From contig OZ024741.1 in assembly GCA_964016885.1 (NCBI GenBank), forward strand, positions 93,558,001 to 93,622,000: 64,000 bases of DNA, in the 5' to 3' direction. Numbering within the stretch: position 1 is the stretch's first letter; every line of letters begins with the position of its first letter. Of the stretch, positions 6,257 through 28,300 are shown in pieces. The stretch comes from Eledone cirrhosa. Lineage: Eukaryota. The notes under the pieces are model-generated. The model saw only the letters and a list, made by a program, of their open reading frames with translations, searched no databases and had not been told where the DNA came from. Made by a program: the position numbers and the translations under genes.

Positions 6257-7330
6257 TGGCCAGGAGGGAAGCTAGGAGACAAGTGTACTTCGCAAGAAGG
6301 GAAGCAGAGGAAAGAAAGTTCAAGCATGTTCTACAACGCGAGGACCAAAAACGTGAGGTGTTCAGGATTGCTAGGCAATGTGTCAAGGAAAACCGTGATA
6401 TTGTCGGGGAGAAGTATGTCCTTAATGATGATGGTGTACTTGCCATCACTGACGCTGATAAGAAGGTAGCTTGGAAGTGTCACTACGAAAGGCTACTAAA
6501 TGAGGAGAATAATTGGGAGAAAGATAGTCTCCCCCACATCGATCCAATAGAGGGACCAGCAGTGTTAGTCGAGGGGAGTATAATAAGTAAGGCGATCAAA
6601 GACATGAAGACAGGCAAGGCGGCTGGGCCTCCGGAAATAGTTGCTGAAATGCTGAAAGCATCTGGAACGGTGGGACACATTATGGTCAACCGGATAGTAA
6701 ACCCCAAGTCATACAGAATGGGGTCGTTCCGAAGGACTGGCGTAGCAGCATCATTAACTGCTATAAGGGTAAAGGAGATGCCCTAGATAGGGGAAACTAT
6801 AGAGGCATTAAATTAATTGACCAGGTCATGAAGGTCACAAAAAAAGTAATAGCGCAACTAATCAGAGAGCGAATTGATCTAGATGAAATGCAGTTCGGGT
6901 TTGTGTCAGGTAAAAGTACAACAGACGCTCTTTTCATTGTACGACAACTACAGGAGAAGTACCTAGCTAAAAGTAAACTCCTATACTTAGCTTTTGTTGA
7001 CTTGGAGAAAGCCTTTGACAGAGTACCCTGCTCGATTATCTGGTGGGCTCTTAGAAAACTAGGTGTTGATGAATGGCTTGTGAGAGCTATACAAGCCATG
7101 TATAAAGAAACAGTCAGCAAGGTTAGAATTAACAATGAATATAGTGAAGAGTTTAGTGTAAAAGTTGGTGTTCATCAAGGCTCTGTCCTTTTCTCCCTAC
7201 TATTTATTATTGCCCTTCAGGCTATAACAGAGGAGTTCAAGACCGGCTGACCATGGGAACTCCTATATGCAGATGATCTAACGCTCATAGCTGAATCAAT
7301 GGCTGAACTCGAGAAGAAATTCCAAACATG
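6254..7330 (+). mobile_element. RTE-clade LINE internal fragment (RT region, frameshifted)
   Basis: ORFs 6256-6786 and 6828-7250 contain QFGF, FVDLEKAFDRV and GVHQGS, with YADD following. Near-identical to the copy at 10461. Confidence 0.9.
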
Positions 7331-9552
7331 TATTTATCCAGTTCGACATAGAGAGCTACTATGCTTCAATCACCTTACCGCTACTTACTGCCGCCTTGGA
7401 CTTCGCCGAAGCACTTGTGCCCATCACCGACCAGGAAAGAAAAATCATCCTCCACGCCAGGAAGACAGTCTTACTCTTTGACAACTCCAAATGGATAAAA
7501 AGAGCTCCCGACTCACCCTTCGACGTCAGCATGGGCGTGACGGATTCGGCGGAGGTCACAGATCTTATAGGGTTATTCCTTATAGCCAAACTCACCGATA
7601 TGTTTCCTGCTTTCGGTGGTGGATTGTACCTTGATGATGGGCTCCTTACCCTTAAAGGGTACAACCCCAGTAGTACAGATCGGGTCCGTAAACAATTAAT
7701 CAGCTTCTTCCGCGACTGGGGATTTAAAATAACCCTACAAACGTCTCTGACCCGAGTTAACTTCCTGGACGTTACCCTTGACCTCAATAATGACCTGTAC
7801 TACCCATACAGGAAACCCAATGACAACCTGCACTACATCCACCGCCGATCTAACCATCCTAGGAACATCAACATCCTGGTCAAAAACATCTCCCTCCGCA
7901 TATCCCGTTTGTCAGCTAATGAGAAGATATTCGATGAACATGCGCCTTACTACAACCAGGCCCTCAAGCGGAGTGGTTTCCGGGAGGAAATATCCTACTG
8001 TCCAGCTCCCATTAGCGGAACCAGCAGGCGACACCGCCGCTCACGCTATGTAACATGGTTCAATCCTCCCCACAACGCCGACAGACAACTCCCATTGGGA
8101 AAATTTTCTTTAGGCTCATTGAAAAACACTTCCCACTACAACACCGCTACCACTACATAATTAACAAAAATACCATCAAACTCTCTTACAGCACTACACC
8201 TAACTTCGCACAAAACATCGTCTCCTCCAACAACAAAAAACTCAACCCCGATGGAAGAAACAACCTAAATAGCAGTGGAGAGCCGACCAGGAGGTGCAAC
8301 TGTCCTGATAGATCCAGTTGCCCCCTCGACAACAGATGCAGAGACCGTAATGTGATCTACCAGTGCAACGTGAGCACGGACACCTCCAACAAAGCTTATA
8401 TAGGATTAACTGCATGTGACTTCAAGACCCGGCTATACCAACACAGACATACCTTCCGAAACCCGGCCCGGCGTCACGCCACCACACTTTCGGGCCACAT
8501 ATGGGACCTCAAGGACAACAACATCAACTATGATCTCACTTGGAAATTACTGTCCAGAGCCAACTCTTACACGGGAGGACGCCGTCCGTGCAATTTATGC
8601 TCGGAGGAAACTTTACAAATGGGGGTTCTGTATTAATTTTCCGTTCTTTACTTTTACTTCGTACGATCCTTCATGTAGCTTGTATAAGACTTTTTGTTTC
8701 GTAGCGGTACCCTTAGAGTTAGCATTAGTATTTTTTTGCGGGACCCTGAATTATATTCTTGTACTAGTTTACTTTCTTGCACTGGATGGTTGCTGGCCCT
8801 GTAGAAACCCTTATTATTTCGTGGTAGTCTCTTTAGTATTTTGGCCCCCCCTTTGTTGACCCGTCACCGTACGATACACGCACTTATACCTCGTATAAGG
8901 GTCCCTTTATTTCCGTCCCGCCTAGTTTATTTTTATTATTATTATTTATTTATTTATTATATTTTTTTTTAAATTTATTTTTCTATTCTTTTATTCACTT
9001 ATTTGTTTATTTATTTATTTATGTATTTCTTTAGCCTAGCAATAGCGAGAGACTTAAGTCTTAGTAACCAGACTTGGCTTATTTTTTTTTTTTCATTCTC
9101 AGTACTTTCTATAGTTTTACCCTTCATTGTTCTACTTACCGTTTCAACTTCCTCCCCCTCCCACTCCCCAGTATCCTCTTTGACCTCACGCCCAGCTGTA
9201 GCTGGCACTACCAACGCATGAATGGGTCTACTCCACCCCCTCTCCCTTTTTCTCCTACTGGCAGGTTTAACTACCCCTTCCCCCACCAATTTGCCATCAC
9301 AGATTTACTACTAACTTGTGATGTGACCAATCCCGGTGATTATCTCTTTGACCATATATGGAATTACCCCTTGATAAGCTCGGCCATTTAAATACCAGAA
9401 TAAATTTTCATTCAGTCCAGAATTAGCCGTTGAAACGGCTTGAGCTCAGCCGTCGGGGTCTTACTTGTTCCTATTACCCACTCTACTACCCTAAGTATTG
9501 AGTACTTTGGTGCGTTATGGTCCACCTGGTTCCTTACCACTTTTCCTTCGTT
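7331..9552 (+). mobile_element. 5'-truncated Penelope-like element (RT C-terminal half + GIY-YIG endonuclease, frameshifted) with 3' UTR/pLTR
   Basis: FIQFDIESYYASI at the 5' junction, FDVSMG, YLDDGL, NFLDVTL, then CPLDNRC..VIYQC...YIGLT..FKTR...CNLC. Ends at a (TA)n tract. Confidence 0.85.
9366..9459 (+). ncRNA. Type I hammerhead ribozyme motif, U3-A8 core variant
   Basis: Stem I ACCCC/GGGGT, core TTGATAA, long weak stem II, GAAA at 9432-9435, stem III ACGGCT/AGCCGT, GTC triplet at 9452-9454. Confidence 0.6.
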
Positions 9553-10134: not shown

Positions 10135-10251
10135 GCATATATATATATAAATATACATATATATATATATATATATATAAATATACATATATATATATGC
10201 ATATATATATATAAATATACATATATATATATATATATATATAAATATACA

Positions 10252-10331
<80 letters not shown>

Positions 10332-10342
10332 CATATATATAC

Positions 10343-10389
<47 letters not shown>

Positions 10390-10400
10390 CATATATATAC

Positions 10401-10460
<60 letters not shown>
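9553..10460. repeat. (TA)n/(TACA)n microsatellite tract
   Basis: Direct reading; source of the spurious YI-repeat ORFs. Confidence 0.95.
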
Positions 10461-13366
10461 TCTGTGATGCAAATAACCTAGCCGTCTGTAACACTAACTT
10501 CAAAAAACGTGACAGTCACCTGATCACCTATAGATCCGGGGAACACACAAGCCAGGTAGATTATATCCTTACCAGAAGACGTGACAGAGTGTCTGTTGTT
10601 AACACTAAATCCCTCCCCCATGAAGAATGCACCTCCCAACATAGACTGATAATTAGCGACCTCATGGTCAGGACGAGACGTACTCGACAACAGAGGAGGA
10701 CTATCCTCAGGAGGAAAATGTGGAAGCTAAGGGACCCCACAGCCAGGAATAAATTTCAAAGCATATTGCTTGATGCTTTCGACAGTGAGGAAGAACATTT
10801 AGAGTCGGACAATATAGAGGGAGAGTGGGAATTTCTGAAAGCAAACCTGCTGTTGGCGACAGACGAGGTCTGTGGCTGGAGCAGGCCTGTAGGCAGGAGG
10901 AGAGTAACATGGTGGTGGAACAGTAAGGTGGAGGGGTCAATTAAGGCCAAAAAGCAGGCTTGGAAAGTATGGCGGGATGGGGGAAGTAGAGAGGACTATC
11001 AAGTGGCCAGGAGGGAAGCTAGGAGACAAGTGTACTTAGCAAGAAGGGAAGCTGAGGAAAGAAAGTTCAAGCATGTTCTACAACGCGATGACCAAAAACG
11101 TGAGGTGTTCAGGATTGCTAGGCAATGCGTCAAGGAAAACCGTGATATTGTCGGGGAGAAGTGTGTACTAAACGACGATGGCACACTTGCCATCACCGAC
11201 GCTGATAAGAAGGTAGCTTGGAAGTGTCACTATGAAAGGCTTCTAAATGAGGAGAATAATTGGGAGAAAGGCAGTCTCCCCCATATCGACCCAATAGAGG
11301 GACCAGCAGTGTTAGTCGAGGGGAGTATAATAAGTAAGGCAATCAAGGATATGAAGACTGGTAAGGCGGCTGGGCCTTAGGAAATAGTTGCTGAGATGCT
11401 GAAGGCATCTGGCACGGTGGGACACACCATGGTCACCCGCATAGTTAACCAAGTCGTACAGAACGGGGTTGTTCCGAAGGACTGGCATAGCAGCATCATC
11501 GTTAACTGTTATAAGGGTAAAGGAGACGCCCTAGATAGGAGTAACTATAGAGGCATTAAATTAATCGACCAGGTCATGAAGGTCACGGAAAGAGTAATAG
11601 CGCAACTAATCAGAGAGAGAATTGACCTAGATGAAATGCAGTTCGGGTTTGTGTCAGGCAAAAGTACCACAGACGCTCTTTTCATAGTACGACAACTACA
11701 GGAGAAGTACCTAGCTAAAGGTAAACCCCTCTACTTAGCTTTTGTCGACTTGGAGAAAGCCTTCGACAGAGTCCCCCGCTCCATTATCTGGTGGGCTCTT
11801 AGAAAACTAGGCGTTGACGAATGGCTTGTGAGGGCTATACAAGCCATGTATAAAGAAACAGTCAGCAAGGTTAGAATTAACAACGAATATAGTGAAGAGT
11901 TTAGCGTAAAAGTCGGCGTCCATCAGGGCTCTGTTCTCAGTCCACTACTATTTATTATTGCCCTTCAGGCTATAACAGAGGAGTTCAAGACAGGCTGCCC
12001 ATGGGAACTCCTATACGCAGACGACCTGACACTCATAGCGGAATCAATGGCCGAGCTAGAGAAGAAATTCCAAACATGGAAGCACGGCCTAGAGTCAAAA
12101 GGACTTAAAATTAACCTGGCTAAGACCAAAGTACTAGTTTGTAGGAAAGAAAACAAGGCGGCGGTCCCTTCGGGGAAATGGTCGTGCTCGGTGTGTAGGA
12201 AAGGCGTAGGTAGAAACTCCATTTTATGTCCTAAATGCAAAGTATGGGTGCATAAAAGATGTAGTGGGATCACAGGTAAGCTAACTAAGAACATAGATTT
12301 TACATGTGGCCGGTGCTCTGGTGCAATAAGTAGCAGCAAGTGCCCACAAACTACTAGCTCTTTCAATTGCGCAGAGGGTTCTATAGAAATAGTGGACAGC
12401 TTCCGTTACCTGGGCGATAAAATCAGCAGTGGGGGAGGGTGCTCTGAAAGTACTGTAGCTAGAGTCAGAACTGGTTGGAAAAAGTTCAGAGAGCTTATAC
12501 CACTATTAGCTGCTAAAGGGTTCTCACTAAAAATGAAAGGCAGGTTGTACGATGCCTGCATACGAACAGCAATGCTGCATGGCAGTGAGACCTGGGCATT
12601 GTGTGCAGAGGATATACGCAGAATAGAGAGGAACGAAGCTTGCATGCTCCGCTGGATGTGTAACAGTAATATACGTGAACGGCAAAGCATAAACGAACTA
12701 AGGAATAAATTAGAGATAAGAGGGATCAGATGTTGTTTACTCGAGAGAAGGCTACGTTGGTATGGACACGTGATGCGCATGAAAGTCGATAGCTGTATAA
12801 CAAAGTGCAGGGCAATAAAGATAGACGGTAGTCACGGAATAGGCAGACCTAGAAAAACCTGGGACGAGCTGATAAACTCCGACATCACACACTTACACCT
12901 CTCCAAGACAATGTCACTGGACCGAGACCTTTGGCGGTACTCAGTAACAGAGAAGACCCGCCTTACCTAAATATATAGTAAAACCTACTCCAGCCAGTAG
13001 GCATCTCTAACAAAATACACCCCGTCCCACCACCCCCACCCCCACCCGATCCACACCACCCCGTTCTATGTAAAGTTATGTTGGTGCCGCGCCATCGAGG
13101 CCGAAACAAATGAGATCGTGTAGGTGTCACGACAAAAAAACACACAGTCCACGCTGTAATGTGGCCGTGTAGGCAACACGGTAAAAACCTCCCAGACCCA
13201 CACTGTAAATGTGGTTGGTGTTAGGAAGGGCATCCAACTGTAGAAAACCTGCCAGACAGTCCTATGCGAGCAAGACAATCACTCTTGCCTCAAGTGGGAC
13301 TACCCCCGTCCAAACCCATGCAAGCGTGGAACACGGACGTTAAACGTTGATGATGATGATGATGAT
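10461..13366 (+). mobile_element. RTE-clade LINE, 5'-truncated, one in-frame stop (11378-11380), with 3' UTR and (GAT)n tail
   Basis: End of the APE domain, RT (ORF 11396-12970: FVDLEKAFDRV, QGSVLSPLLF, YADD), PHD-like finger, RLRWYGHVMR and GRPRKTW C-terminus typical of RTE; flanked by (TA)n. Confidence 0.93.
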
Positions 13367-13390
13367 ATATATACATATACATATATATAC

Positions 13391-13436
<46 letters not shown>

Positions 13437-13441
<5 letters not shown>

Positions 13442-14104
13442 TTGAAATAGGATGAAACGAAATTTCATTTCTCACTCTTAGTACGGCACTAGTACATCGT
13501 TCCTGTGTCAGTGTTGAACAAAAAGGTGACGTGGTTGCCTTAACACCGTACGGCATGAATCAGGCTGTTCCGTTTGTTTACAAATGGACAAAGCAGGCGT
13601 TATAATAAACGTCCGCTAAACTGATACGTACATATATATATGTGTACCTGTATGTATATATATATATATATATATGCATACTACTGTACGTCTGTATACA
13701 TATATGTATGTACGTATACATACATACTTACATTTAAGTAAGTGCCGTACTAAGAGTGAGAAATGAAATTTCGTTTCATCCTATTTCAACTTATCGTTTT
13801 CGGTGCGCCTGGCCGACTGAACTCACTCGATATGCAAATTAGGCTGCTCAGCCGTTAATTTTCATAAGGAAAGTATATACTTTCGAACGTTCAACCATCT
13901 GGCAGAAGGGTATACGGTGCTGATGATAGCTAAGAAGCTTGAAACTAGTACATCGTTCCTGTGTCAGTGTTGAACAAAAAGGTGACGTGGTTGCCTTAAC
14001 ACGTACGGCATGAATCAGGCTGTCCGTTTGTTTACAAATGGACAAAGCGGGCGTTATAATAAACGTCCGGTAAACTGATACGTACATATATATATGTGTA
14101 CCTG

Positions 14105-14146
<42 letters not shown>

Positions 14147-14199
14147 TACTACTGTACGTCTGTATACATATATGTACGTACGTATACATACATACTTAC

Positions 14200-14200
<1 letters not shown>
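13437..14200 (+). mobile_element. Dispersed, diverged copy (about 1.5 units plus an inverted 54-bp end) of the hammerhead-containing repeat
   Basis: Clear homology to the unit of the 53208-56217 array. 13437-13490 is the reverse complement of 13741-13794. Confidence 0.9.
13914..13956 (+). ncRNA. Type I hammerhead ribozyme
   Basis: ACGGTG-CTGATGA-TAGCTAAGAAGCTT-GAAA-CTAG-TA-CATCGT. Confidence 0.8.
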
Positions 14201-14242
<42 letters not shown>

Positions 14243-14319
14243 TACATATATATATAAATATACATATATATATAAATATACATATATATATAAATATACA
14301 TATATATATATATATATAA

Positions 14320-14372
<53 letters not shown>

Positions 14373-14378
14373 TATATA

Positions 14379-15334
14379 CAGCAAGCAGGATACAGCCACA
14401 GGAAACAAGTACCACCAATCTCTGGGAGGGCTCTGTAGAAACAGTAGACAGCTTCTGCTACCTAGGTGACCGAATTAGAAGCGGAGGTGGGTGTTCAGAA
14501 AGTACAATAACTAGTGTAAGAACGGGATGGAAGAAGTTCACGGAACTACTGTCACTGCTAGCTGCAAAAGGCTTCTCCCTCAAAATGAAAGGCAGACTGT
14601 ATGATGTGTGTATCCGAACAGCAATGTTACATGGTAGTTAAACCTGGGCGCTGAAGGTGGAAGATTTACGTAGATTAAAGAGAAACAAAACCTGCATACT
14701 CCGATGGATGTGTAACAGTAATATGCGTGAACGACAAAGCATAAATGAATTGAGAGAGAGACTGAGCATAAGAGGAATCAAATGCTGTGTGCAGGAGAGG
14801 CGGTTGCGTTGGTATGGACATATGATGCGTATGAAGGATGACAGCTGCATAAAAAGGTGCAGAGCACTAGAAGTCGATGGAAACCACGTAGTGGGGAGAC
14901 ACATGATGACCTGGGATGAGATGATAAAAGTCGACCTTACCCAATTACACCTCTCAAAGGCGATGACACATGACCGTGACCTCAGGCGTCACGCAGTAAT
15001 ACAGAGTACCCTACCTCCCATGGGTACAAGCTGAAGCATATAGACAATATGCCCCCACACCCTCCTACTGCAAGGTGGTCGTGGAGGTGCCACGGCAAAA
15101 AAGAACCCAGCCCACACTGTAAAGTGGACGTGTAGGCGCCACGGCAAAGCACCCAGAACTCACTGTAAATGAGGTTGGTGTTAGGAAGGGCATCCAGCTG
15201 TAGAAATCAAGCCAAATCAGTTCCTGTATGAGCAAGGCATGGTCAGCCGACCAGACACTGCCCACAACAGGACAACTCATCTAACCCATGCTAGCATGGA
15301 AGAACGGACGTAAAACGGTGATGATGATAATGAT
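14379..15334 (+). mobile_element. RTE LINE 3' fragment, second subfamily, degenerate
   Basis: ORF 14657-15034 contains RRLRWYGHMMRM; distinct 3' UTR; (GAT)n tail. Confidence 0.85.
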
Positions 15335-25306: not shown

Positions 25307-28300
25307 GGGTGGAGTAGGAATCATGGTAGCAGAAAAGTGGGCAGATAAGATAATAGACGTAAATAGAGTGAACGACAGAATAATTAAAATACGACTTGTC
25401 CTCAATAGAACTACGGTGACAGTAATATCTGCGTACGCACCCCAATCTGGACTGCCCGGCACTATAAAAGACAGATTCTATGAGACACTGATGCTCACTA
25501 CCTCCCAAATAACCGACAGTGACTATATAATTATTGCAGGCGACCTAAATGGTCACGTTGGACAACATTGTGACGGCTACGACGAAATCCATGGAGGCTA
25601 TGGGTTTGGTACTAGAAATGAGGAAGGCTCCAGAATCCTGTGACGCAAATAACCTAACTATCTGTAACACTAACTTCAAAAAACGTGACAATCACCTGAT
25701 CACCTATAGATCCGGGGAACACACAAGCCAGGTAGATTATATCCTTACCAGAAGACGTGACAGAGTGTCTGTTGTAAACACTAAATCCCTCCCCCATGAA
25801 GAATGCACCTCCCAACATAGACTGATAATTAGCGACCTCATAGTCAGGACGAGACGTACTCGACAGCAGAAGAGGACTATCCTCAGGAGAAAAATATGGA
25901 AGCCAAAGGACCCCACAGCCAGAAATAAATTTCAAAGCATATTACTTGATGCTTTCGACAGTAAGGAAGAGCATTTAGAGTCGGACAATATAGAGGGACA
26001 GTGGGAATTTCTGAAAGCAAACCTGCTGATGGCGACAGACGAAGTCTGTGGCTGGAGCAGGCCAGTAGGCAGGAGGAGAGTAACATGGTGGTGGAACAGT
26101 AAGGTGGAGGGGTCAATTAAGGCCAAAAAGCAGGCTTGGAAAGTATGGCGGGATGGGGGAAGTAGAGAAGACTATCAAGTGGCCAGGAGGGAATCTAGGA
26201 GACAAGTGTACTTCGCAAGAAGGGAATCAGAGGAAAGAAAGTTCAAGCATGTTCTACAACGCGAGGACCAAAAACGTGAGGTGTTCAGGATTGCTAGGCA
26301 ATGTGTCAAGGAAAACCGTGATATTGTCGGGGAGAAGTGTGTACTTAATGATGACGGCGTACTTGCCATCACCGACGCTGATAAGAAGGTAGCTTGGAAG
26401 TGTCACTATGAAAGGCTACTAAATGAGGAGAATAAATGGGAGAAAGACAGTCTCCCCCACATCGACCCAATAGAGGGACCAGCAGTGTTAGTCGAGGGGA
26501 GTATAATAAGTAAGGCAATCAAGGATATGAAGACGGCTAAGGCGGCTGGGCCTTCGGAAATAGTCGCTGAGATGCTGAAGGCATCTGGCACGGTGGGACA
26601 CACCATGGTCACCCTCATAGTTAACCAAGTCGTACAGAATGGGGTTGTTCCGAAGGACTGGCATAGCAGCATCATCGTTAACTGTTATAAAGGTAAAGGA
26701 GATGCCCTAGATAGGAGCAACTATAGAGGCATTAAATTAATCGACCAGGTCATGAAGGTCACGGAAAAAGTAATAGCGCAACTAATCAGAGAGAGAATTG
26801 ACCTAGATGAAATGCAGTTCGGGTTTGTGTCAGGCAAAAGCACCACAGACGCTCTTTTCATTGTACGACAACTACAGGAGAAGTACCTAGCTAAAGGTAA
26901 ACCCCCCTCTACTTAGCTTTTGTCGACTTGGAGAAAGCCTTCGACAGAGTCCCCCGCTCCATTATCTGGTGGGCTCTTAGAAAACTAGGTGTTGGCGAAT
27001 GGCTTGTGAGAGCGATACAAGCCATGTATAAAGAAACAGTCAGCAAGGTTAGAATTAACAACGAACATAGTGAAGAGTTTAGCTGAATCAATTGCCGAGC
27101 TAGAGAAGAAATTCCAAACATGGAAGCACGGCCTAGAATCAAAAGGACTTAAAATTAACCTGGCTAAGACTAAAGTTCTAGTTTGTAGGAAAGAAAATAA
27201 GGCAGCGGTCCCTTCTGGGAAATGGCCATGCTCAGTGTGTAGGAAAGGCGTAGGTAGAAACTCCATTTTATGTCCCAAATGCAAAGTATGGGTGCATAAA
27301 AGATGTAGTGGGATCACAGGTAAGCTAACTAAGAACATAGATTTTACATGTGGCCGGTGATCTGGTGCAATAAGTAGCAGCAAGTGCCCACAAAATACTA
27401 GCTCTTACAACTGCGCAGAGGGCTCTATAGAAATAGTGGACAGCTTCCGTTACCTGGGTGACAAAATCAGCAGTGGGGGAGGGTGCTCAGAAAGTACAGT
27501 AGCTAGAGTCAGAACTGGATGGAAAAAGTTCAGAGAGCTTATACCACTTTTAGCTGCTAAAGGGTTCTCCCTAAAAATGAAAGGCAGGTTGTATGATGCC
27601 TGCATACGAACAGCAATGTTGCATGGCAGTGAGACCTGGGCATTGTGTGCAGAGGATATACGCAGACTAGAGAGGAACGAAGCTTGCATGCTCCGCTGGA
27701 TGTGTAACAGTAATATACGTGAACGGCAAAGCATAAACGAACTAAGGAAAAAATTAGAAATAAGAGGGATCAGATGTTTATTCAAGAGAATAACGTGATG
27801 CGCATGAAAGTCGATAGCTGTATAACAAAGTGCAGGGCAATAAAGATAGACGGTAGCCACGGAATAGGCAGACCTAGAAAAACCTGGGACGAGCTGATAA
27901 ACTCCGACCCCACACACTTACACCTCTCCAAGACAATGTCACTGGACCGAGACCTTTGGCGGTACTCAGTAACAGAGAAGACCCGCCTTACCTAAATACA
28001 TAGTAAAACCTACTACAGCCAGTAGGCATCTCTAACAAAATACACCCCGTCCCACCACCCCCACCCCATCCACACCACCCCCTTCTATGTAAAGTTATGT
28101 CGGTGCCACGCCATCCAGGCCGAAACAAATGAGATCGTGTAGGTGTCACGACAAAAAAACACACAGTCCACGCTGTAATGTGGCCGTGTAGGCAACACGG
28201 TAAAAACCTCCCAGACCCACACTGTAAATGTGGTTGGTGTTAGGAAGGGCATCCAGCTGTAGAAAACCAGCCAGACAGTCCACGCTGTAATGTGGCCGTG

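What the first reader, a model, noticed from the sequence alone, without database searches (positions are those of the whole stretch)
13437..14200. Dispersed copy records a retrotransposition event: twin-priming-like inversion breaking at the ribozyme, and a 3' end shared with the array
Seen: the copy is the inverted last 54 nt of a unit (13437-13490) joined, through ACT microhomology, to sense sequence starting at ACTAGTA/CATCGTT. That start is 4-7 nt before the predicted cleavage site. The sense part stops 7 nt short of where the inverted piece begins. The inverted piece ends at TTTCAACTTAT next to (TA)n, the same unit position at which the array ends (TTTCAATTTAT, 56217). The hammerhead core, extended stem I and octamer are conserved while the flanks diverge. 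Inference: there is an RNA intermediate with a fixed 3' priming point distinct from the ribozyme cut, target-primed at TA repeats. This argues for a mobile element rather than a simple satellite.
Basis: partly seen in the sequence, partly recalled or inferred. Interest (0 to 1): 0.75.

Follow-up and report, generated by a model that had tools for sequence, protein, structure and literature searches.

The report
Hammerhead retrozyme with Penelope insertion footprint
This is one of many thousands of copies of a 456-base non-coding repeat with a predicted self-cutting RNA motif, whose copies end at two fixed sites about 61 bases apart next to TA repeats, the mark of Penelope-type jumping genes that likely copied it from RNA; the break near the ribozyme in this copy is likely chance.

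Summary
The anatomy is as described, but the sense arm is 1.56 units long and reads through an intact hammerhead. The family has more than 15,000 units genome-wide. 64 of 65 scorable two-armed insertions pair S1 with S2 (replication set 18 of 18). This is the published Penelope-like (PLE) footprint: head-to-head arms, (TA)n targets, a 'tail' between two RT start sites. The break at the ribozyme is not general: 8 arms stop within 10 nt of the cut and 229 read through, the background rate. Two insertions carry runs of A-to-G changes that look like RNA editing. Two of 217 insertions are chimeras with a young Hydra-type PLE that obey the same short/long rule, a lead to the mobilising enzyme. A circular template is not shown. 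Verdict: a non-LTR retrozyme, new member of a known kind. This scan reported the same footprint before on other hammerhead repeats in this genome.

The parts
13365..13436 (.). (TA)n target, left flank
13437..13490 (-). Inverted arm: unit 300 to 247, the 'tail' only, outer end at fixed site S2
   Evidence: (54 of 54 identical)
13488..13490 (.). ACT microhomology at the head-to-head junction
   Evidence: family-wide microhomology
13488..14201 (+). Sense arm, 714 nt (unit 450-456, a full unit, then 1-239), outer end at fixed site S1
13495..13950 (+). One complete 456-nt unit, predicted cut to predicted cut
13617..13734 (+). Long AT-rich hairpin (predicted) with internal TA run; carries an excess of A-to-G variants; S1 lies at its 3' base (13733)
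13734..13794 (+). Tail between S1 and S2 (61 nt), with conserved short hairpin 13760-13779
13832..13839 (+). Octamer ATGCAAAT, conserved; promoter role untested
13889..13975 (+). Type I hammerhead motif: extended stem I (13889-13919 with 13951-13975), core CTGATGA..GAAA 13920-13950, palindromic stem III, predicted cut 13950/13951
   Evidence: no Rfam hit at gathering score; cleavage not tested
14202..14378 (.). (TA)n target, right flank
53208..56217 (+). One-armed 6.5-unit array of a sister subfamily (420 of 474 alignment columns identical), ending at S2; five full units differ by one substitution and a 12-nt indel
57750..60618 (+). 5'-truncated Hydra-type Penelope-like element (ORF 57750-59399, own hammerhead motif 60430-60487, long end 60618 at (TA)n); candidate mobiliser family

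Best explanation
The copy belongs to a family of non-coding 456-nt hammerhead repeats with more than 15,000 units, inserted in (TA)n as head-to-head arms that end at two fixed sites, and it was likely written into the genome from RNA by a Penelope-like element's enzyme. Shown: copy number, two fixed ends (S1, S2), one of each per two-armed insertion, TA targets, microhomology at the inner junction, read-through of cut sites. Inferred: a PLE protein cuts both strands of a TA repeat; one DNA end primes reverse transcription at S2, the other at S1; both cDNAs run towards the RNA's 5' end for variable lengths and are joined through a few matching bases. In this copy the S2 cDNA stopped after 54 nt, at about S1 (a recurrent class, as expected if both ends primed on one RNA), and the S1 cDNA ran 714 nt and happened to end near a cut site. 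The template was not a cut linear monomer; it was a circle or an uncut multimer (about even odds). The enzyme most likely comes from a Hydra-type PLE (about 0.5).
For: Copy number: 23,291 exact tail 23-mers, 15,130 exact cut-site 25-mers, reversed controls 0. Ends: 213 of 252 at S1/S2 against 8.6% expected; 144 of 171 in the consecutive C1 subset. Pairing 64 of 65, 18 of 18 in new loci. TA flank at 63 of 63 S1 and 115 of 126 S2 ends, 5 of 24 other ends. S1-S2 spacing 61-62 nt in 56 of 58 full units. Microhomology of 2 nt or more in 17 of 22 flush junctions, null 19%. Tail-only S2 arms 14 of 55; 6 of 34 in the C1 subset against 7% expected. A-to-G runs: L118 16:1, L072 15:0 and 12:0 (A>G:T>C); no arm of 277 has more than 4 T>C. 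Autonomous PLEs of this genome show the same two-end pattern (4 of 4 two-armed Hydra-type insertions short+long). Chimeras L129 and L186. Literature: PAc cuts and extends both strands and starts at two internal sites that bound the tail (PMC11167929); inverted arms, tail and (TA)n targets (PMC8557442).
Against: No enzyme, RNA or cleavage was observed. No PLE with sequence homology to the unit was found among 50 GIY-YIG loci and 38 Hydra-type loci. The tail (61-62 nt) matches neither the published 30-40 nt nor the Hydra-type family's about 88 nt. Chimeras are 2 of 217, none in the 56 replication clusters, and four one-armed copies abut LINE sequence. In 12 of 64 insertions the two arms differ by more than 5%, so one RNA does not always give both arms. 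70 of 161 insertions are one-armed. Part of the sample was chosen on the tail motif, which favours S2. A-to-G excess by distinct site holds in the hairpin (9 of 29 against 1 of 31) but not outside it (11 of 98 against 9 of 98).
Confidence: 0.85

Rival explanations
1. The template is an RNA cut by the hammerhead; reverse transcription runs off at the cut, so inversion junctions lie at the ribozyme.
For: This copy's junction is 4-7 nt from a cut site; 2 of 30 non-A cut-site variants are junctions exactly at the cut.
Against: 8 stops against 229 read-throughs (3.4%; background 4.5% per 20 nt); 5 against 78 (6.0%; background 5.2%); only 1 exact junction among all 18 matches on the 443-Mb contig C1. 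This very arm reads through the cut at 13950. The junction lies before the cut, in bases a cut RNA would lack.
Confidence: 0.05
2. A LINE (for example the RTE-like family in this window) mobilises the repeat by ordinary target-primed reverse transcription with L1-type twin priming.
For: LINEs are abundant; inversion with microhomology resembles L1 twin priming (model recalled; PMC2837659 seen as listing only); four one-armed copies abut LINE coding sequence.
Against: Both outer ends are fixed and internal to the unit, strictly one of each; no A tail or LINE-like 3' tail; the same two-end pattern is on the genome's PLEs.
Confidence: 0.06
3. The repeat is a satellite spread at DNA level (extrachromosomal circles, break-induced template switching in TA repeats).
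For: Tandem arrays exist, one of about 40 kb with higher-order repeats; L072's arms were partly copied from one another.
Against: DNA-level spread gives no reason for two fixed ends paired one of each, nor for sense-strand A-to-G runs.
Confidence: 0.04

Closest known systems
Metazoan non-LTR retrozymes (PMC7229834; 10.64898/2026.07.22.740005)
   Same: Non-coding tandem unit with one type I hammerhead; size within the 51-972 bp range of the preprint; monomers, dimers and arrays; co-occurs with PLEs; U.U at the base of stem II and one-pair stem III with palindromic tetraloop as in the axolotl motifs.
   Different: The parts read propose PLE mobilisation from co-occurrence and pLTR homology; they do not describe insertion ends. 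Here the ends carry the PLE footprint, but no homologous pLTR was found. Expression and circles are not shown here.
Penelope-like elements: PAc Poseidon (PMC11167929); structure of PLE insertions (PMC8557442)
   Same: Two internal start sites bounding a tail present at one end only; inverted 5'-truncated arm; AT-rich or (TA)n targets; hammerhead cut not marking copy ends.
   Different: No ORF; tail 61-62 nt against 30-40 nt; S2 lies 300 nt from the cut, against about 90 nt in PAc; arms are made of repeated units.
Hydra clade PLEs (PMC8557442, section 11)
   Same: (TA)n insertion; in this genome a young 821-aa family with the short/long end rule, an AU-rich 8-bp hairpin about 14 nt before its long end like the unit's, and two chimeras with the repeat.
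   Different: No significant sequence similarity to the unit; tail about 88 nt; differently built hammerhead.
L1 twin priming (recalled; PMC2837659 listing only)
   Same: Both target ends prime; head-to-head junction with microhomology; small gap between the arms in RNA terms.
   Different: Second start is fixed, not variable; no poly(A); arms often overlap in unit position and exceed one unit.

Membership tests
Non-LTR retrozyme | Tandem non-coding repeat with a type I hammerhead in each unit | tested here: met
   core in all six array units and the dispersed unit; stems paired in 55-58 of 58 distinct copies at most pairs. Rfam gathering scan negative.
Non-LTR retrozyme | Structure kept by compensatory change | tested here: inconclusive
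   one pair changes on both sides (GU 28, UG 13, AU 13), two on one side, one pair is broken in 38 of 58; copies are related; R-scape not run
Non-LTR retrozyme | Self-cleavage of the RNA | not testable with these tools
   One-pair stem III suggests dimer-dependent cutting (PMC4209133 passages); 1 of 9 predicted elements cleaved in the 2026 preprint
Non-LTR retrozyme | Expressed as linear and circular monomers | not testable with these tools
   No RNA holder listed
Non-LTR retrozyme | Dispersed, high copy, no LTR or ORF | tested here: met
PLE-type insertion | Tail at one end only, between two fixed ends | tested here: met
   length 61-62 nt, outside the published 30-40 nt
PLE-type insertion | Inverted 5'-truncated arm | tested here: met
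   91 of 161 insertions two-armed
PLE-type insertion | Microsatellite (TA)n target | tested here: met
Autonomous PLE | RT plus GIY-YIG ORF | tested here: not met
   no ORF in the unit; it works like a PLE substrate but is not a PLE
PLE pLTR derivative | Homology to the pLTR of an autonomous PLE | tested here: inconclusive
   none among 88 PLE loci, a small part of more than 10,000 candidates
Hydra clade (for the neighbouring PLE) | DKT, CxCx5C linker, CxxC and CxH in the endonuclease, RWK, (TA)n target | tested here: inconclusive
   DKT, CxCx5C, CxxC, CxH and TA targets present; RWK absent; no tree built

The most novel reading that the evidence does not exclude
A Hydra-type Penelope enzyme acts as a two-headed complex that always starts once at a short and once at a long site, and can do so on two different RNAs in one event (its own and the retrozyme's, as in chimeras L129 and L186, or two retrozyme subfamilies), running round a small RNA circle. 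This would name the enzyme that spreads animal retrozymes and define a structural start signal that works in trans without sequence homology.
Probability: 0.3. Interest if true: 0.78.

Novelty: new member of a known kind. Interest (0 to 1): 0.5.

Why it matters
PLE mobilisation of animal retrozymes is proposed in the papers read but argued from co-occurrence and homology. Thousands of insertions with the two-start-site footprint are direct genomic support, and give a ready substrate (S1, S2, TA target) and a candidate intact 821-aa enzyme for an in vitro test. The strict one-short, one-long pairing also constrains how PLEs themselves integrate. The single-copy claim about the ribozyme does not hold, and the kind of element is known.

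Tried and rejected
Rfam gathering scan: no hit. Expression: no RNA holder listed. Laying four contig sets of unknown kind: 5,469, 0, 5 and 26 contigs; contigs show no starts or ends, not used as evidence. Partner search: GIY-YIG family search, 50 of 150 listed loci read, and Hydra-type protein search, 30 loci plus 8 wider stretches: no pLTR homologous to the unit; the repeat pieces in L245 and L292 are ordinary neighbours. I first took the hammerhead at window 56380/57517 for the Hydra-type pLTR; it belongs to a separate short two-armed family. Circle test by private A-to-G changes shared among units: 10 against 2 T>C, but six come from L072, whose arms share one 5' junction and were partly copied from each other; counted by insertion it is 8 against 5, so rejected as evidence for a circle. 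Apparent end clusters at unit 26-29, 72, 84, 108, 178-183, 205 and 225 are artefacts of subfamily divergence or of masking the TA zone. A first hammerhead regex failed and was redone. Literature searches: retrozyme + octopus, PLE + non-autonomous + hammerhead + tail + satellite, retrozyme / reverse transcription / twin priming: no paper describing retrozyme insertion ends was listed; subscription journals and preprint supplements were not visible. An snRNA-type promoter with octamer in newt satellite 2 is recalled; one search found no paper for it.

Full report
Observation. The window holds two insertions of one repeat family: the copy at 13437-14201 and a 6.5-unit array at 53208-56217. With unit position 1 set at the first base after the predicted hammerhead cut (unit = 13495-13950, 456 nt), the copy is an inverted arm covering unit 300 to 247, an ACT overlap, and a sense arm of 714 nt from unit 450 through a full unit to 239, between two (TA)n tracts. 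The sense arm passes an intact hammerhead at 13920-13950. The motif is type I: CTGATGA, a four-pair stem II with a U.U at its base, GAAA, a one-pair stem III with palindromic loop, and a stem I extended to about 23 pairs. Rfam gave no hit at gathering score. In 58 distinct copies most pairs hold in 55-58; one pair changes on both sides and one is broken in 38.

Family. The own genome (3.0 Gb; an animal, cephalopod by earlier scan notes, not tested here) has 23,291 exact matches to a tail 23-mer and 15,130 to a cut-site 25-mer, with 0 for reversed controls. I fetched 220 loci, merged them to 155 regions and mapped arms on the unit: 177 clusters, of which 16 were dropped (at a locus edge or in one large array on C2), leaving 161. 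91 are two-armed, head to head; 70 are one-armed.

Ends. Of 252 outer 3' ends, 127 lie at S2 (unit 286-302) and 86 at S1 (225-246), 85% against 8.6% for a flat distribution; in the consecutive C1 subset 144 of 171. Sampling on the tail motif favours S2 but cannot make S1. Of 65 two-armed insertions with both ends at S1 or S2, 64 have one of each; the other 26 two-armed ones have an end in the TA zone or elsewhere. In 60 new loci chosen on one end, 56 clusters were scored and 18 of 18 scorable pairs were S1+S2. Genome-wide there are 8,428 S2-(TA)n and 5,495 S1-(TA)n junction matches, controls 5 and 1. The two sites are 61-62 nt apart in 56 of 58 full units. S1 is at the 3' base of a long predicted hairpin, S2 about 15 nt after a conserved short hairpin.

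The ribozyme claim. 8 of 256 5' ends lie within 10 nt of the cut, 11.2 expected; 8 arms stop there and 229 read through, against a background of 4.5% per 20 nt. Part of that sample was chosen on an intact cut site, so two independent checks matter: the end-anchored set gave 5 stops and 78 read-throughs, background 5.2%; and of 216 genome matches with a non-A before the cut, 30 were read and 2 are junctions, 28 point variants, with 1 junction among all 18 on C1. The junction in this copy is therefore likely coincidence, and the template was not a cut linear monomer.

Inner junction. Of 93 head-to-head junctions 46 could be scored to the base; 22 are flush or overlap and 17 of these share 2 nt or more (null 19%); 24 have extra or unmatched bases. 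In 14 of 55 simple two-armed insertions the S2 arm is only the tail, as here; 6 of 34 in the C1 subset against 7% expected (p 0.04) and 2 of 15 in the replication set. This fits both ends priming on one RNA in part of the events. Against that as a rule: in 12 of 64 insertions the arms differ by more than 5% (median 1.9%, against 6.6% to other insertions).

RNA stage. Of 277 arms, three in two insertions carry runs of sense-strand A-to-G changes (16:1, 15:0, 12:0 against T>C); no arm has more than 4 T>C. In the hairpin 9 of 29 A sites but 1 of 31 T sites carry the transition in five or more insertions; outside it there is no difference. Sharing of private changes among units did not survive counting by insertion, so a circle is not shown. 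No RNA run was listed.

Known mechanism. PMC11167929 (parts 1-2 of 4 read) shows that a Poseidon PLE protein cuts and extends both strands of AT-rich DNA, starts at two internal RNA sites that bound the 30-40-bp tail, and does not need hammerhead cleavage. PMC8557442 (passages and section 11 read) describes inverted 5'-truncated arms, a tail at one end only and (TA)n targets. PMC7229834 (passages, parts 3-4 of 6) and 10.64898/2026.07.22.740005 (parts 1-3 of 5; supplements not visible) define non-LTR retrozymes and propose PLEs as mobilisers; in the parts read neither reports insertion ends. PMC4209133 (passages) covers palindromic stem III and dimer cutting. Five searches listed no paper on retrozyme insertion ends.

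Partner. PLEs are abundant (10,597 GIY-YIG candidates) and show two ends too, with tails of about 37 nt (one family) and about 88 nt (a young family with intact 820-821-aa ORFs in 8 of 8 stretches fetched; lengths counted by hand). The latter has DKT, CxCx5C, CxxC and CxH but not RWK, so it is Hydra-type by motif; 4 of 4 two-armed copies pair short with long. No PLE is homologous to the unit. Two insertions are direct chimeras bounded by (TA)n: L186 has the PLE's short end, a switch into the repeat, and the repeat's S2 end; L129 has the repeat's S1 end, a switch into PLE coding sequence, and the PLE's long end; in neither is the displaced remainder found beyond the insertion. L104 joins an S2 arm head to head with a related PLE. 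These are 2 of 217 clusters, none in the replication set, and four copies abut LINEs, so this is a lead.

Verdict. A non-LTR retrozyme inserted with the PLE two-start footprint (0.85). The kind is known, and this scan noted the same footprint on 310-, 422- and 467-nt hammerhead repeats of this genome; those notes are unchecked AI notes and are not counted as support. Interest 0.5.

Noticed in passing
window 56252-56880 (-) and 57420-57551 (+); L093, L016, L299: A second hammerhead family (canonical type I) with two fixed ends about 68 nt apart at (TA)n; short, two-armed and apparently non-coding in L093 and L016. In the window it sits in the array's TA flank, and its right piece joins an inverted Hydra-type piece 4 nt after its cut site.
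   Followed up: partly
window 57552-60618; L301-L338: Very young Hydra-type PLE family: many identical endonuclease domains, intact 821-aa ORFs, oversized hammerhead, tail about 88 nt, far longer than the published 30-40 nt.
   Followed up: partly
L291:5150-5365, L183, L011: Another repeat ending at (TA)n about 16 nt after a related hairpin (AAACGAAA..TTTCGTTT), with weak likeness to the unit; possibly a related retrozyme sharing the S2 signal.
   Followed up: partly
G000:C2:122.635-122.676 Mb (L031-L048) and C3:12.27-12.32 Mb: Large arrays of the unit; the first has a higher-order repeat with recurrent internal junctions (258 to 440), the second carries a G at the cleavage position in many units, which is predicted to block cutting.
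   Followed up: no
L072, L118: Hyper-edited-looking arms; L072's two arms share one 5' junction and are mosaic between subfamilies.
   Followed up: partly
L117, L118, L122, L060: Some ends abut (TC)n rather than (TA)n.
   Followed up: no
window 7291-8636, 50056-51910, 52200-52368: Further PLE fragments: a second Hydra-like ORF pair, an RT plus GIY-YIG pair (weak Pfam hits), and a pLTR-like end of another hammerhead family.
   Followed up: partly
window 10181-12970, 14400-14960, 25549-27900: RTE-like LINE copies with a PHD finger after the RT; the finding lies in a TA tract after a (GAT)n-tailed short repeat at about 13000-13365.
   Followed up: no
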